From NCBI RefSeq assembly GCF_054482525.1, contig NZ_CM137006.1: a stretch of DNA of 64,000 nucleotides; one strand, 5' to 3'. Shown here piece after piece: positions 39,903 through 44,720 of this stretch. Under the pieces are notes generated by a model. It did no database searches, was not told the origin of the DNA, and worked only from the letters and a program-made list of their open reading frames with translations. Each line of letters begins with the position of its first letter. Positions within the stretch are counted from its first letter, which is position 1. A program made the position numbers and the translations under genes.

Positions 39903-40657
<755 letters not shown>

Positions 40658-40761
40658 ATCAGCATACTTGTCCTTAGCCTTCTGCAGTGACAGCTGGTAG
40701 TACAGCGTGCTTCTGGCCAGCCCTGCAGCCTTTAACAGGTCAGACTGGCAGTGTCCGCACC

Positions 40762-41292
40762 TCAGGCTCCGGATGACTTTCGTTTTTTCTCCAGCTCCTG
40801 GCGCTTTTTTTCCAGGAGATGCTCCTGCATGGCTTTCAGATATGCATTTTCTGCGCGAAGATAACGCAGCTCATTCTTCATCTCTTCCGGCGTCATGTTT
40901 GCCTCGTTTTCATGGGTATCATCAGAACGGGTCATGCTTTTCTCCTTCCTGCGCCTGATAAAGGCCTCATTACCAGATTTGCGGTAGCCTTTTATCCAGT
41001 TTTTAACCGTGTTGTGGCTGGGAATGTTAAACCGGGCAGCTACCCGGGGTAGAGACTCAGAATGCCCGAGAGCATAAAGAACCACGCAAAGTTTATCTTC
41101 AGGAGAATAGCTACGCTTGTGTCTGCAATCCAGTGCCCGAGGACCGTGAAGAAGAAAAAGATTAATCCAGTGTGAGAGGCTGGTGTGAGAAAGTTGAAAG
41201 AGTTTTGCCGTAGAAATGATGCCTGCATGACCAGCCAGGTAGTGATTTACAGCGGCAAGTTTTACTTCAAATGAATGTTTCATAAACTGCAC
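40762..41292 (-). CDS. IS3-family transposase OrfA (HTH plus leucine zipper)
   Basis: 176-aa ORF; ends over ggaaaaaaagcg (A7G) frameshift motif near 40805-40815. Confidence 0.8.
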   Translation of the reverse strand: MQFMKHSFEVKLAAVNHYLAGHAGIISTAKLFQLSHTSLSHWINLFLLHGPRALDCRHKRSYSPEDKLCVVLYALGHSESLPRVAARFNIPSHNTVKNWIKGYRKSGNEAFIRRRKEKSMTRSDDTHENEANMTPEEMKNELRYLRAENAYLKAMQEHLLEKKRQELEKKRKSSGA

Positions 41293-41334: not shown

Positions 41335-41440
41335 GTTTACGCCGCATCCGGCGGTTATGCGCTGATGCCTGATGCGGCGCGGGCGCGTCTTATCATGCCT
41401 GGAAGTCTGCGCCCGAATCGTAGGCCGCCTCCGCTATATT
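41335..41440. repeat. REP/BIME cluster, right part
   Basis: gtttacgccgcatccggcg..., gcctgatgcggcgc..., cgaatcgtaggccg: several REP-like units. Confidence 0.65.
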
Positions 41441-41456
41441 AACTGGCATTGGCAAA

Positions 41457-41819
41457 TTACTCGTCACTACCTTTATTCATGTTTTTTTGGTCTTCATCCG
41501 GATAATGTTTTTTTAGATATTCCAGGACGTTTTTATTGACCTTGTGTTGCGTATACACCCACCCTTTCCAGTAATCAGGCTGGTCCAGGTAAACTTCTGG
41601 CGGAATGGTGAAATCAGAAAGCGTTAACCATTCGGCTAACAGATCGGGGTTTCGTTTCTGGATTAACTGCAACAGCATAATCAGTGACATAGCTGAGGCA
41701 GGAGCCGTACTATCACCACTCAAATATTTCCACACTGTTGACCGGTTCGAACGAAAAAGGATCGGTAGCAATGCCCGGTCCAGATTCATTTCATTAAAAA
41801 TCTTCTCAAATTCATTCAT
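41457..41819 (-). CDS. hypothetical protein (120 aa), not in K-12 map
   Basis: ORF MNEFEKIFNEMNLDRALLPILFRSNRSTVWKYLSGDSTAPASAMSL...; AT-rich context; divergent from the adjacent outer-membrane protein gene. No function assigned. Confidence 0.5.
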   Translation of the reverse strand: MNEFEKIFNEMNLDRALLPILFRSNRSTVWKYLSGDSTAPASAMSLIMLLQLIQKRNPDLLAEWLTLSDFTIPPEVYLDQPDYWKGWVYTQHKVNKNVLEYLKKHYPDEDQKNMNKGSDE

Positions 41820-42167
41820 TTAAATTTTCCTGCCTGGCGTAAACCTCTTAAAAATTGAGATTTATCAAAGAAACGCATTTTAGCACACATCAGGAACCGC
41901 TTCACGTTTAGTCCAGAAACAGAATTTATTTCGCTTATCAAAACAAGTCTTTACTCTTTTTTACATTGAAAGAGCACAAAATGATTTTCTATTTTATTTA
42001 TATAAGAAACATTTTTTGTTTCTTATTGGTGGTGTTTACGCTTACACCAAACAAAAATGCGCTTTACATCACACAAATGGCGGCGTAGATTTCGATCAAA
42101 TTGCAACGCAGATTAATTCTTATAACAACGTTTTACGTTGCTTATAGAAACAAATATGTGACTTACT

Positions 42168-43601
42168 TTGAAAGAGAAAAAATGCATGAAAACTGTAAAG
42201 CTGTCTTTACTGGCTGTCGTTGTTGCTACCGCGGTAAGTCCATCTGCGTTTGCGGGTGATACTGTTGAGGCGGCAACGACAGAATTAACGGCAATCCAGC
42301 CAGGAATGTCGCAATCGGAAATTGATCAGAAAATTGGTCGATTTTTAGAAAGGACAGGGAATAGTGCAGCCGCACAAAATTATCTGATTGCGCATGATTA
42401 CCGGACAACGACACCTCAGGAAAATACAGCTGCTTCTCCCGTACAGCCCACCAATACGCTGAACCCGATAACCAATCAAGCGCAGACCGACCGCGACAAC
42501 GGGCAGGATACCGCCATTCAGGACGCACAACATGCCGCCAACTGGGCTTCAATGAAAGCTGATGACGCGCAGCACGCCATTATGGTGGCGCAGACGGATA
42601 TTGATGCCAATAAAGCCGCCATCGCCGACACCCGTAATGATGTCTCCGCAGTGCAGTCAGACGTCACCAACATAAAAGGCGATGTCGCACATGCCCAGTC
42701 AACGGCTGACCATGCCAACGCTAACGCCAACGCCGCTCTGATGAACGGCGTCAAACTTTCCGGTGCTGTGACAGAAAACAAAAATAATATCGAACAGAAC
42801 CGCAGCGATATTGCTGACCAGCAGCAACAACTCGACGAAACCCGGAAAACCGTTGCCGCCACCGGTGATGTACAGACTGCCGCCCGATATCAGAGCATGA
42901 TTGACGCCAGACAGACTGCTGCTGCCAATGCGCAACAGGAACAAGCGGACACCCAGCAGCAACAAATGGACGATCAGCAGAAACAAATCGACGCGACGCA
43001 AAAAACGGTTTCCGCACTTGGCGATGACCAGACCAACGCACATTATCAAGAGATGGTTAACGCCGAACTGAGAGCACAAAATGATGCGAATGCGCGTACT
43101 GCAGCAGAACAAAAACAAAAAATAGATACTCTGGCGACTAACCAGGCAACACAACAGCATATCGATAGTGTGCAGTACGGGGAACAAATTCAGCGTCTGG
43201 CGCAAGACTCAACACAAACGCATGAACAAATTGACAGCCTGACACAAGACGTAACCCAAACGCATCAGCAGTTAAGCAACACGCAAAAACGAGTAGCGGA
43301 TAATAGCCAGCAGATTACTACGCTCAATAACCATTTCAGTTCGCTGAAAAACGAAGTTGAGGACAACCGTAAAGAAGCCAATGCGGGAACTGCATCAGCC
43401 ATCGCTATCGCCTCACAACCACAGGTGAAAGCCGGTGACTTTATGATGATGTCAGCGGGAGCGGGAACCTTCAACGGTGAATCTGCGGTGTCTGTCGGAA
43501 CATCTTTTAATGCCGGAACGCATACCGTGATTAAAGCCGGTGTCTCTGCGGATACGCAATCTGATTTCGGCGCGGGTGTCGGCGTGGGATATTCTTTCTA
43601 A
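42168..43601 (+). CDS. putative secreted coiled-coil protein with YadA-like C-terminal membrane anchor (trimeric-autotransporter-like)
   Basis: Signal peptide (MKTVKLSLLAVVVATAVSPSAFA; start may be 42186), Gln/Ala-rich heptad-like central region, C-terminus ...AGTASAIAIASQPQV...GESAVSVGTSF...IKAGVS...GVGVGYSF resembling the YadA anchor (4 beta-strands ending in aromatic residue). Confidence 0.6.
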   Translation: MKEKKCMKTVKLSLLAVVVATAVSPSAFAGDTVEAATTELTAIQPGMSQSEIDQKIGRFLERTGNSAAAQNYLIAHDYRTTTPQENTAASPVQPTNTLNPITNQAQTDRDNGQDTAIQDAQHAANWASMKADDAQHAIMVAQTDIDANKAAIADTRNDVSAVQSDVTNIKGDVAHAQSTADHANANANAALMNGVKLSGAVTENKNNIEQNRSDIADQQQQLDETRKTVAATGDVQTAARYQSMIDARQTAAANAQQEQADTQQQQMDDQQKQIDATQKTVSALGDDQTNAHYQEMVNAELRAQNDANARTAAEQKQKIDTLATNQATQQHIDSVQYGEQIQRLAQDSTQTHEQIDSLTQDVTQTHQQLSNTQKRVADNSQQITTLNNHFSSLKNEVEDNRKEANAGTASAIAIASQPQVKAGDFMMMSAGAGTFNGESAVSVGTSFNAGTHTVIKAGVSADTQSDFGAGVGVGYSF

Positions 43602-43686
43602 TATTCCAATCCTCAATATAAATAAGAGCAAGGAAGCTTGCCGGGTTTCACCTCTTCATTAATTTGTACATTATTTAAGGTTAACA

Positions 43687-44109
43687 ATGATGAATAGCTC
43701 CATTAAATCGTTTTCCCTGCTGGCGGTTATATTACTGGCTGGCTGTAGTTCACCCACTTCCCGCATCGCAGATTGCCAGGCGCAGGGCGTCAGCCATGAC
43801 ACCTGTTATCTCGCAGAACAACAGCGTCAGACGGCTATTTTAAGTGCATCCGAGGCGCAGGCATTTAAAAATGCAGAAGCCGCACAACATGCCCAGGCCG
43901 CTAAAAAATCTATTTATAAAGGATTTGGCATGACCTTTAGAATGAGCAGTAAGAACTTTGCTTATCTCAATGATTCATTATGTGCAATTGATGAAGACAA
44001 TAAAGATGCCACTGTTTATCAGTCAGGTCTTTATAACGTCATTGTTTATCACCACACGGGAAAAGTCGCCTTAATGAAGGAAGGTCAGTTTGTGGGTTAT
44101 TTAAAATGA
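43687..44109 (+). CDS. hypothetical lipoprotein (140 aa)
   Basis: Signal peptide with lipobox LLAGC; several Cys; no recognised family. Confidence 0.55.
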   Translation: MMNSSIKSFSLLAVILLAGCSSPTSRIADCQAQGVSHDTCYLAEQQRQTAILSASEAQAFKNAEAAQHAQAAKKSIYKGFGMTFRMSSKNFAYLNDSLCAIDEDNKDATVYQSGLYNVIVYHHTGKVALMKEGQFVGYLK

Positions 44110-44309
44110 AGGAGCAAAGGAAAATCCCCCTGACGCATATTATGATTATCGGTGCGTTTATTTTTGCCTTCTTGCAAGTGGTGTTATTAGCCTCCCTGGT
44201 TCACGCTGTGAATGTTAACAACGAAATCCAGGAAGGCTTATTTCAATCGGGGCGCATAATGGTAGAAAGTTTGCAGCATATTCTTTCGGTGCAAACGGGG
44301 ATTAACTGA
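44106..44309 (+). CDS. hypothetical small membrane protein (67 aa)
   Basis: ATGA start/stop overlap with preceding lipoprotein gene; one predicted TM helix (IMIIGAFIFAFLQVVLLASLV). Confidence 0.45.
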   Translation: MKEQRKIPLTHIMIIGAFIFAFLQVVLLASLVHAVNVNNEIQEGLFQSGRIMVESLQHILSVQTGIN

Positions 44310-44312
44310 TTT

Positions 44313-44720
44313 TCACCCCGCCCGATGATGACAGCAGCCGGAGAGATTTTCGATAATCGGGCAGTCGGCGCTGTCATCACCAGGGCAGGCATTCGCCAGC
44401 GCCAGTAGCTGGTCGCGCATGGATTGCAGCTCCTCAATGTGCCGTTCGATCTCCGCTACCTTCTCCAGCGTGCGCCGTTTTACATCGGCGCTGTGACGCT
44501 GTGGGTCGTTAAACAGATTCACCAGTTCGCCGCTCTCTTCCAGGTTAAAGCCCACCTGGCGCGCCTGGCGCAGTAAGGTCAGTTCGTTGAGATGCTGCTG
44601 CGTGTAGGTTCGATAACCATTTTCGCTGCGCATCGGCGGCGTCACCAGCCCCTTCTCTTCATAGAAGCGAATGGCTTTGCTGGTCAGGCCGGTAATTTTT
44701 GCTACATCGCTAATGTTCAT
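44313..44720 (-). CDS. cueR: MerR-family copper-responsive regulator
   Basis: 135-aa [32 protein letters not shown]... with C-terminal metal-binding Cys pair (CPGDDSADC). Confidence 0.9.

What the first reader, a model, noticed from the sequence alone, without database searches (positions are those of the whole stretch)
43687..44309. Translationally coupled lipoprotein / small single-TM protein pair of unknown function
The 140-aa lipoprotein gene (lipobox LLAGC) ends in ATGA, which starts a 67-aa single-TM protein gene. Tight coupling of a small lipoprotein with a small membrane protein is an arrangement seen in toxin/immunity, lysis or envelope-stress modules. Neither resembles a K-12 protein I recognise.
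Basis: inference. Interest (0 to 1): 0.4.

Follow-up and report, generated by a model that had tools for sequence, protein, structure and literature searches.

The report
Adhesin-linked lipoprotein and small membrane partner
The two overlapping genes are real, conserved E. coli genes of unknown function (z0638 and an unnamed neighbour in O-island 29). In many enterobacteria they sit directly behind a short outer-membrane adhesin gene, so they are more likely periplasmic partners of that adhesin than a toxin or lysis module.

Summary
A 140-aa lipoprotein gene (43687-44109, lipobox LLAG|C, Ser at +2) overlaps a 67-aa single-TM gene (44106-44309) by ATGA. Both are under purifying selection and occur in 1416 of 5426 complete E. 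coli genomes.

The locus is O-island 29 of O157:H7. The lipoprotein is z0638, published only as a hypothetical protein whose deletion does not change motility.

The family is small and essentially confined to Enterobacterales. In 14 of 27 independent loci, across at least 10 named genera and several chromosomal sites, its gene lies directly downstream of a short, headless trimeric autotransporter (TAA).

My best reading (confidence about 0.4) is a periplasmic accessory of the co-expressed TAA. It would work like SadB or TpgA but is unrelated to both. The small protein would be a lineage-restricted, co-translated partner.

The toxin/immunity and lysis readings have no support.

The parts
41457..41819 (-). 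z0640-type 120-aa gene, divergent from the adhesin operon. It looks like an XRE/MqsA-type HTH protein and is probably the island's regulator.
   Evidence: ORF. The knock-out primer arms for z0640 listed match the flanks of this ORF by eye; unlike the z0638 and gmrA arms, they were not run through the DNA search. There is a weak Pfam match to the MqsA HTH region (E 0.088). Homologues stand divergently upstream of the TAA in Escherichia, Pseudocitrobacter, Rahnella, Yersinia and L046, and next to the lipoprotein in Serratia.
42186..43601 (+). [not shown]
   Evidence: Pfam YadA_anchor E 1e-11, above the gathering score. PGAP calls it a 'YadA-like family protein'. The gmrA knock-out arms map to its exact flanks. 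The passenger is mosaic and length-variable while the anchor is conserved.
43602..43686 (+). 85-bp spacer between the TAA and the lipoprotein gene. It holds a short hairpin (43627-43642) and an AAGG Shine-Dalgarno sequence 6 nt before the ATG.
   Evidence: Sequence. The scan finds no promoter-like or plus-strand terminator-like site here, which is consistent with read-through from the TAA gene. Co-transcription is not proven.
43687..44109 (+). z0638, the 140-aa lipoprotein gene. The signal peptide and lipobox are residues 1-20 (43687-43746). The N-module is residues 20-66 (43744-43884) and contains the conserved Cys30-x9-Cys40 pair and a helix. The C-terminal eight-stranded beta-barrel domain is residues 75-140 (43909-44106).
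   Evidence: The z0638 knock-out arms map at 43648-43686 and 44110-44147. The AlphaFold2 model has barrel pLDDT of 82-91. dN/dS is 0.03-0.10.
44106..44109 (+). ATGA overlap: the stop codon of the lipoprotein gene and the start codon of the small gene.
   Evidence: The overlap (-4) is conserved in all orthologous pairs.
44106..44309 (+). 67-aa small protein gene. It has a basic N-terminus, a hydrophobic segment at residues 12-34 (44139-44207) that ends in the conserved L-[VI]-H-A-[VI] motif, and then a 33-residue amphipathic tail (44208-44306). It is either an Nin-Cout bitopic inner-membrane protein or a secreted peptide released by cleavage after VHA.
   Evidence: Orthologues were found only in Escherichia, Pseudocitrobacter and L046. 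dN/dS is 0.05-0.37. It has no family match.

Best explanation

z0638 is exported, lipidated at Cys20 and, having Ser rather than Asp at +2, sorted by Lol to the inner leaflet of the outer membrane. From there it faces the periplasm. It presents a disulfide-stapled helical N-module and a small eight-stranded beta-barrel.

I propose that the barrel domain acts on the co-expressed autotransporter in the periplasm. It could hold or order the long repetitive coiled-coil chains before export, or it could dock on the periplasmic face of the anchor. This would be functionally analogous to the two known TAA helpers, SadB and TpgA, but with an unrelated sequence and fold.

The 67-aa protein is made in fixed proportion by coupled translation. 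It exposes a roughly 33-residue helix in the periplasm and would act as a lineage-restricted partner of the lipoprotein.

Shown: gene reality, lipobox, coupling, modular architecture, recurrent synteny with TAAs, and co-regulated transcription. Inferred: outer-membrane sorting, periplasmic orientation, any physical contact with the TAA, and the helper activity itself.
For: **Synteny**
- Loci were fetched by similarity to the lipoprotein only. A YadA-anchor gene lies upstream on the same strand within 2 kb in 14 of 27 distinct loci that carry the C-domain.
- These loci are E. coli, E. whittamii, two Pseudocitrobacter, Phytobacter massiliensis, UBA5654, Rahnella, Yersinia aleksiciae, Pantoea, Enterobacter chuandaensis, E. 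asburiae, L046, L048 and L050.
- Every TAA gene found in about 450 kb of fetched flanks sits in that position and nowhere else.

**Linkage is maintained over time**
- It survives relocation to several chromosomal neighbourhoods: ybbJ/cueR, fetA/qmcA, thiMD-scr, the wrbA region and others.
- It survives divergence of the anchors to about 20% identity. Anchor and C-domain identities correlate (Mantel r 0.35, p 0.012).
- In L046 the partner has lost the lipobox and N-module but kept its place in the four-gene module, so the TAA link belongs to the barrel domain.

**Expression and exposure**
- z0638, the TAA and z0640 are transcribed together in DMEM and all are shut off on HeLa contact (RPKM 20, 96 and 44, each falling to 0).
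- No plus-strand terminator-like site separates the TAA from z0638.
- The TAA passenger is mosaic and length-variable (331-579 aa), while z0638 is 97-99% identical across Escherichia. That is the pattern expected for a surface-exposed protein and a shielded periplasmic partner.
- Conserved Cys pairs fit an oxidising periplasmic location.

**Precedent**
- SadB is a lipoprotein in an operon with a TAA, and its paralogue YajI is not TAA-linked.
- 91% of tpgA-like genes lie downstream of a taa gene.
Against: - Twelve of 27 C-domain loci have no TAA nearby: Klebsiella, Raoultella, Pluralibacter, Erwinia, Serratia, Citrobacter and some Enterobacter.
- At the thiMD locus the lipoprotein is the constant element and the TAA comes and goes.
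- In an APEC genome the TAA carries an internal stop while both downstream genes are intact.
- In O157:H7, deleting z0638 did not reproduce the motility defect of deleting the TAA gene. The design also removes the small ORF's start codon. The TAA gene alone complemented a deletion of the whole island, so z0638 is not required for that phenotype.
- No structural or sequence relation to SadB or TpgA was found.
- No interaction was modelled or measured.
Confidence: 0.4

Rival explanations
1. z0638 is an autonomous periplasmic binding or inhibitor protein. Its small beta-barrel would bind a ligand or inhibit an incoming enzyme, as the lipoprotein MliC and its relative PliC inhibit lysozyme. On this view the adjacency to autotransporters only reflects shared residence in surface or virulence islets at recombination hot spots.
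For: - Nearly half of the family loci lack a TAA.
- Many family members are C-domain-only secreted proteins.
- Deleting z0638 does not copy the TAA-deletion phenotype.
Against: - There is no Pfam MliC hit for any of 23 members.
- Profile-profile comparison with an MliC/PliC alignment gives 1% probability over 9 columns. The SxSGAxY and KG motifs shared by the three MliC/PliC sequences aligned are absent.
- Chance hitch-hiking does not explain why every TAA found in the flanks lies directly upstream on the same strand, in at least 10 named genera (plus several unnamed or metagenomic loci) and several neighbourhoods.
Confidence: 0.28
2. z0638 is an envelope-architecture protein whose activity resides in the N-module. 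That module is a highly conserved, Lpp-like helical outer-membrane lipoprotein unit that tethers or spaces envelope layers. The barrel and the small inner-membrane protein would be add-ons that link it to the inner membrane. The TAA would not be its target.
For: - The N-module is the most conserved part of the family: R7, C11, G15, S17, C21, Y22 and Q26 are invariant (mature numbering).
- It exists alone as lipoproteins of about 65 aa in Buttiauxella, Atlantibacter, Aeromonas and Pseudomonas. Many of these end in Lys, as Lpp does.
- There is a weak match to the Lpp/OprI alanine-zipper model (E 0.019).
- Fused and split versions both occur (Citrobacter L034/L035, and L048), which links the N-module and the barrel functionally.
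Against: - The alanine-zipper match is far below the cut-off (15 versus 43 bits) and is not seen when mature sequences are scanned.
- N-module-only genes are never next to a TAA (0 of 13). The TAA-linked L046 protein lacks the N-module altogether. So this reading does not explain the synteny.
- No peptidoglycan-binding domain was detected.
Confidence: 0.12
3. The coupled pair is a toxin/immunity, lysis (spanin-like) or envelope-stress module, in which the small membrane protein damages the membrane and the lipoprotein counteracts or completes its action.
For: - A tight ATGA overlap joins an outer-membrane lipoprotein gene to a small Nin-Cout membrane protein gene.
- The pairing superficially recalls o-spanin and i-spanin pairs.
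- There is a weak PHROG 'Rz-like spanin' match (E 0.027).
Against: - The spanin match covers only residues 11-27, the signal peptide and lipobox.
- No PADLOC, PHROG or Pfam family fits either protein.
- No homologue exists in 50,697 phage records.
- No holin, endolysin or antitoxin-type neighbour is present.
- The small partner is missing or replaced by unrelated ORFs in most genera that keep the lipoprotein.
- The published deletion removed z0638 and the small ORF's start codon, and the mutant was viable enough for motility and qRT-PCR assays. Growth curves were reported only for the whole-island deletion, which also removes the pair and grew like wild type.
Confidence: 0.05

Closest known systems
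SadB (Salmonella/E. coli; PDB 4C47) and its paralogue YajI
   Same: Both are small enterobacterial lipoproteins encoded in an operon with a trimeric autotransporter. Both have the architecture lipid anchor, helical segment, C-terminal all-beta domain. In both families some members are TAA-linked and others stand alone, as YajI does.
   Different: - SadB lies upstream of its TAA, has Asp at +2 and sits in the inner membrane. z0638 lies downstream and has Ser at +2; no family member has Asp there.
- SadB has a nine-heptad trimeric coiled coil and a MATH-like beta-sandwich of about 100 residues. z0638 has a Cys-stapled helix hairpin and an eight-stranded barrel of about 65 residues.
- SadB partners a long TAA with head domains; the TAAs here are short and headless.
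TpgA (Acinetobacter AtaA partner) and tpgA-like genes
   Same: [quoted passage not shown] 91% of tpgA-like genes are downstream of a TAA gene.
   Different: TpgA consists of a SmpA/OmlA (BamE-like) domain and an OmpA_C peptidoglycan-binding domain. Neither domain is detected in z0638 or in any of 23 family members.
MliC/PliC lysozyme inhibitors (PF09864; PDB 2F09, 3F6Z, 3OE3, 4MIR)
   Different: There is no Pfam hit. hhalign gives 1% probability. The conserved MliC motifs are absent. Foldseek is not significant. z0638 also has an extra N-module and TAA synteny.
[not shown]
   Same: It is the same gene: the knock-out primer arms map to 43648-43686 and 44110-44147.
   Different: The paper treats z0638 as a hypothetical protein with no effect on motility. 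It does not mention the lipobox, the 67-aa ORF or the autotransporter nature of the neighbouring gene.

Membership tests
Bacterial lipoprotein (Lgt/LspA substrates) | N-terminal signal peptide ending in a lipobox [LVI][ASTVI][GAS]C | tested here: met
   The sequence is ...LLAVILLAG|C20SS. The Cys is invariant across the lipoprotein members.
Bacterial lipoprotein (Lgt/LspA substrates) | Actual lipid modification and membrane localisation | not testable with these tools
   This needs palmitate labelling, globomycin treatment and sucrose-gradient fractionation. Outer-membrane sorting is only inferred from Ser at +2 under the E. coli +2 rule.
SadB/YajI | Sequence homology to SadB or YajI | tested here: not met
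   phmmer and profile searches of all PDB sequences at E <= 10 return neither 4C47 nor 2JWY.
SadB/YajI | C-terminal MATH-like beta-sandwich | tested here: not met
   [not shown]
SadB/YajI | Inner-membrane retention (Asp at +2) | tested here: not met
   Residue +2 is Ser here and is S, T, Q or V across the family, never Asp. SadB has Asp at +2.
SadB/YajI | Homotrimer through an N-terminal coiled coil | not tested
   The helix at residues 37-66 is Ala/Gln-rich, but no multimer prediction was possible with the tools.
SadB/YajI | Operon with a trimeric autotransporter | tested here: met
   The TAA lies 85 bp upstream on the same strand. The same arrangement recurs in 14 of 27 loci. The gene order is the reverse of sadBA.
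TpgA-like | SmpA/OmlA N-domain plus OmpA_C peptidoglycan-binding domain | tested here: not met
   No Pfam hit at E <= 1 for z0638 or for 23 family members.
TpgA-like | Gene directly downstream of the taa gene | tested here: met
MliC/PliC (PF09864) | Pfam model match and the conserved motifs (SxSGAxY, KG) shared by the known inhibitors | tested here: not met
   No Pfam hit. hhalign gives probability 1% and E 0.057 over 9 columns.
MliC/PliC (PF09864) | Eight-stranded beta-barrel fold | tested here: inconclusive
   [not shown]
MliC/PliC (PF09864) | Inhibition of lysozyme | not testable with these tools
   This needs an enzyme assay with the purified C-domain.
Phage spanin pair (Rz/Rz1) | Family match beyond the lipobox, with phage lysis-cassette context | tested here: not met
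   The PHROG match covers residues 11-27 only. No phage record has a homologue. The neighbours are a TAA, an HTH gene and cueR.
TraV (TIGR02747) | Model match above the cut-off | tested here: not met
   The score is 19.5 bits against a cut-off of 44.75. The match disappears for all 23 mature sequences.
Trimeric autotransporter (for the upstream neighbour) | YadA-type C-terminal anchor, signal peptide and coiled-coil stalk | tested here: met
   PF03895 E 1e-11, above the gathering score, in both the window and the O157 protein. The signal peptide and stalk are visible. No YadA head domain is detected.

The most novel reading that the evidence does not exclude
z0638 and the 67-aa protein would define a third, structurally distinct class of dedicated trimeric-autotransporter partners. 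This class would be specific to short headless TAAs of Enterobacterales. An outer-membrane-tethered barrel protein, possibly trimeric through its Ala/Gln helix, would work with a small inner-membrane or periplasmic peptide to form a periplasm-spanning assembly that controls export, stability or signalling of the adhesin. Envelope signalling from this assembly, rather than DNA binding, could explain the reported effect of 'GmrA' (the TAA) on flagellar gene expression.
Probability: 0.15. Interest if true: 0.65.

Novelty: new variant of a known kind. Interest (0 to 1): 0.45.

Why it matters
Only two helper or partner families are known for type Vc (trimeric) autotransporters: SadB and TpgA. A 2026 survey that looked for more found none, but it considered only TAAs with head domains, which excludes the headless TAAs seen here.

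A third partner family, unrelated to both, would show that dedicated periplasmic partners arose repeatedly for this 'self-sufficient' secretion system. It would also give an experimentally tractable three-gene system in pathogenic E. coli: O157:H7, ExPEC and APEC carry it and K-12 lacks it.

The finding also flags a problem in the literature. The gene published as the transcription factor GmrA encodes, by sequence, an exported outer-membrane autotransporter. The mechanism behind the motility phenotype of O-island 29 therefore deserves re-examination, and z0638 and the small ORF should be included in that work.

Tried and rejected
- **TraV relationship.** NCBIfam gave E 0.0012 and JGI uses that name for one homologue. 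I rejected it because the hit vanishes when the signal peptide is removed from 23 members. No TraV-annotated plasmid gene matched.
- **MliC/PliC membership.** I rebuilt an MliC/PliC alignment from PDB hits and compared profiles. The probability was 1%, so I rejected membership and kept only a fold resemblance.
- **Phage or defence origin.** PHROGs and PADLOC gave nothing meaningful, and tblastn against phages found no match.
- **Plasmid origin.** The few plasmid hits are chromosome-like replicons without a TAA.
- **Structured RNA in the region.** Rfam gave only sub-threshold matches.
- **Foldseek against PDB.** Nothing at E <= 0.001. The afdb50 library was unavailable.
- **Reverse association (TAA to lipoprotein).** The protein search with the O157 TAA listed only Escherichia sequences among its top 120 hits. 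Whether this TAA clade ever occurs without the lipoprotein outside Escherichia is still open.
- **Concatenated-trimer AlphaFold run.** I prepared the sequences but did not submit them. The tool returns only pLDDT and pTM, which would not discriminate a real trimer from a generic helix bundle.

Full report
**1. Observation**

The window is E. coli chromosome. The 2.3-kb query around the finding (42100-44400) is 100% identical to three E. coli genomes, PCN033 among them.

At 43687-44109 (+) there is a 140-aa ORF beginning MMNSSIKSFSLLAVILLAG|CSS, with a canonical lipobox. Its TGA stop overlaps the ATG of a 67-aa ORF at 44106-44309 within the tetranucleotide ATGA. That ORF has a basic N-terminus, one hydrophobic segment of about 22 residues and a 33-residue polar, amphipathic tail.

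PGAP annotates both ORFs in every genome inspected, as 'hypothetical protein' or 'lipoprotein'. The pair is found in 1416 of 5426 complete E. coli genomes, always on the chromosome, at 94-100% identity.

Pairwise Nei-Gojobori estimates within Escherichia give dN/dS of 0.03-0.10 for the lipoprotein and 0.05-0.37 for the small ORF. Both ORFs, and the 4-nt overlap, persist in E. whittamii, two Pseudocitrobacter and a metagenomic enterobacterial contig.

**2. Where it sits**

The genes lie in a 2.6-kb insert between ybbJ and cueR. This insert is O-island 29 of O157:H7 (Yang et al. 2018, PMC5826968).

I mapped the published knock-out primer arms onto the sequence:
- z0638 is the lipoprotein gene. 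Its arms lie at 43648-43686 and 44110-44147, so that deletion also removes the small ORF's start codon.
- z0640 is the divergent 120-aa gene (41457-41819). I matched its arms by eye only.
- The 67-aa ORF is not named in the paper.

The paper reports four relevant results:
- Deleting z0638 does not affect motility or fliC expression.
- Deleting the island does not change adherence to HeLa or Caco-2 cells.
- 'gmrA' alone complements the island deletion.
- z0638, gmrA and z0640 are transcribed in DMEM (RPKM 20, 96 and 44) and all are silenced on HeLa contact.

**3. The neighbour is a trimeric autotransporter**

The upstream ORF has a Sec signal peptide, a Gln-rich coiled coil and a YadA membrane anchor (PF03895, E 1e-11, above the gathering score) in both the window and the O157 allele. 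No YadA head domain is detected, so it is a short 'headless' TAA.

Its passenger is mosaic and length-variable among Escherichia (331-579 aa), while the anchor and N-terminal segment are conserved. The spacer to the lipoprotein gene is 85 bp, and the scan finds no plus-strand terminator-like site in it.

**4. What the lipoprotein is**

It matches no Pfam, NCBIfam, PHROG or PADLOC family and no PDB sequence.

An exhaustive HMM search of 1.84 billion representative proteins finds only 133 relatives at E <= 0.001. A scan of 100,044 species genomes finds 33 loci. Almost all are in Enterobacterales, with a few N-module-only genes in Aeromonas, Pseudomonas and Skermanella.

The AlphaFold2 model (mean pLDDT 72; 82-91 over the C-domain) shows two helices, at residues 23-32 and 37-66, followed by eight strands at residues 75-139. 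The helices carry the invariant Cys30 and Cys40, which probably form a disulfide.

The family is modular:
- The N-module (lipobox, CX9C and helix) occurs alone as lipoproteins of about 65 aa.
- The barrel occurs alone behind an ordinary signal peptide.
- The two modules are separate adjacent genes in Citrobacter and in L048.
- Some members carry a third Cys-pair module.
- Lelliottia, Leclercia and E. soli carry a different C-domain.

**5. The recurrent partner**

Loci were collected by similarity to the lipoprotein only. I then searched them with an HMM of YadA-type anchors over six-frame translations.

| Family gene type | Loci with a TAA upstream (same strand, within 2 kb) |
|---|---|
| C-domain-bearing | 14 of 27 (12 lone, 1 cut by a contig end) |
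| N-module only | 0 of 13 |
| Alternative C-domain | 1 of 3 |

Most gaps between the TAA and the family gene are under 350 bp.

No TAA gene occurs anywhere else in the roughly 450 kb of flanks. The arrangement is found in Escherichia, Pseudocitrobacter, Phytobacter, Enterobacter, Rahnella, Yersinia and Pantoea, and with the alternative C-domain in Lelliottia. It is also found in the unnamed genus UBA5654 and three metagenomic contigs (L046, L048, L050). It occupies several chromosomal neighbourhoods: ybbJ/cueR, fetA/qmcA, thiMD-scr, the wrbA region and others.

The TAA anchors have diverged to about 20% identity, and their divergence correlates modestly with that of the C-domains (Mantel r 0.35, p 0.012). 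A z0640-type gene stands divergently upstream in Escherichia, Pseudocitrobacter, Rahnella, Yersinia and L046. In L046 the partner protein has no lipobox and no N-module, yet it keeps its slot between the TAA and the coupled small ORF. The TAA association therefore belongs to the barrel domain.

**6. The small protein**

Orthologues were found only in Escherichia, Pseudocitrobacter and L046. They conserve the overlap, the hydrophobic segment, an L-[VI]-H-A-[VI] motif at its end and a [FY]-[QE]-[SA] motif in the tail.

The VHA motif fits a signal-peptidase site, but the hydrophobic core is as long as a transmembrane helix. Either an Nin-Cout anchor or a cleaved 33-residue periplasmic peptide is possible.

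Other genera differ. Rahnella has an unrelated small soluble ORF overlapping the lipoprotein stop by 4 nt, and Serratia has its homologue starting 5 nt after the stop. Pantoea has an overlapping but different single-TM ORF. Enterobacter and Klebsiella have nothing in that position. The lipoprotein and small-TM pair is therefore a lineage-specific elaboration, not the conserved core.

**7. Mechanism**

The best-supported reading is that z0638 is a periplasm-facing accessory of the co-expressed headless TAA, tethered to the outer membrane. Ser at +2 implies Lol sorting; no family member has Asp there. The small protein would be a co-translated partner.

This is what SadB does for SadA: lipoprotein, operon, all-beta C-domain, and a paralogue YajI that is not TAA-linked. 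It is also what TpgA does for AtaA: gene downstream of the taa gene and a stable complex with the anchor. Membership of either family was tested and failed.

The contrast between the fast-evolving TAA passenger and the nearly invariant z0638 fits a shielded periplasmic location.

Several observations count against an obligatory helper role:
- Nearly half of the family loci lack a TAA.
- At the thiMD locus the lipoprotein is the stable element.
- An APEC genome keeps both downstream genes beside a TAA pseudogene.
- z0638 is dispensable for the TAA-dependent motility phenotype.

I therefore put this reading at about 0.4.

**8. Novelty**

The genes themselves are catalogued as hypothetical (z0638). 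The family, its modular structure and its linkage to headless TAAs are not described in the searched literature.

A 2026 survey of TAA neighbourhoods found no helpers beyond SadB and TpgA. It required a YadA head domain, which these TAAs lack. If the helper reading is right, this is a new variant of a known kind of system. If it is wrong, it remains an uncharacterised periplasmic protein family of moderate interest.

Noticed in passing
[not shown]
   Followed up: partly
window 39935-41292 (-): Two extra minus-strand ORFs lie between ybbJ and z0640 (39935-40657 and 40762-41292). One resembles an IS3-family orfA (MQFMKHSFEVKLAAVNHYLAGH...). They are absent from PCN033, O157 and the APEC locus, so this is probably an IS insertion specific to this strain's lineage.
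   Followed up: no
L020, L022, L024, L025, L028, L031, L033, L036 (about 6000-6210 in each): Stand-alone N-module lipoproteins of about 65 aa occur in Buttiauxella, Atlantibacter and Aeromonas. They are helical and Ala/Gln-rich and end in Lys (...AVK, ...ATK), which recalls Braun's lipoprotein Lpp. Their Pseudomonas relatives end in ...RSQ. Whether the terminal Lys is cross-linked to peptidoglycan is unknown.
   Followed up: no
L034 6001-6604; L035 40-700; L048 1948-2665: There is gene fission or fusion within the family. In Citrobacter and in metagenomic locus L048 the N-module lipoprotein and the barrel protein are separate adjacent genes, and the barrel protein has its own signal peptide. 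In E. coli they are one protein. This is a 'Rosetta-stone' hint that the two modules work together.
   Followed up: partly
L011 6408-6650; L015 6492-6707; L017 3069-3278: The slot after the lipoprotein gene holds different small ORFs in other genera. Rahnella and Serratia have a conserved soluble protein of 71-80 aa (overlapping the stop in Rahnella, 5 nt after it in Serratia). Pantoea has an overlapping 69-aa protein with a C-terminal TM helix. None matches Pfam.
   Followed up: partly
window 44309-44313 and 44717-44720: cueR is squeezed between the two inserts. Its stop codon lies 3 bp from the convergent stop of the 67-aa ORF, so the 3' ends of the transcripts must overlap. Its ATG overlaps the stop of the upstream HlyD-family type I secretion gene by 4 nt, so cueR looks translationally coupled to an acquired T1SS gene here.
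   Followed up: no
window 44717 to about 52000 and beyond (-); L001 22618-42301: Beyond cueR lies a type I secretion system and a giant BapA/SiiE-like adhesin gene (siiEA). The HlyD gene is intact in the window (391 aa) but is annotated as frameshifted in PCN033. The giant adhesin is annotated as a pseudogene in PCN033 and in the O157 genome.
   Followed up: no
L001 20207-21502 versus window 42186: PGAP's start for the TAA in PCN033 (431 aa) lies downstream of the signal peptide. The O157 annotation and the conservation of the sequence MKTV...A|GDT indicate that the start is at window 42186.
   Followed up: partly
window 41340-41399 (+): There is a sub-threshold Rfam match to naRNA4/CssrE (27 bits against a gathering score of 59.5). 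It is probably a REP-type element at the island boundary.
   Followed up: no
L003 1801-5532: Pseudocitrobacter faecalis carries two consecutive TAA genes (633 and 608 aa, with different anchor subtypes) before the lipoprotein. The module lies beside a large serine recombinase, which suggests it sits on an integrative element.
   Followed up: no
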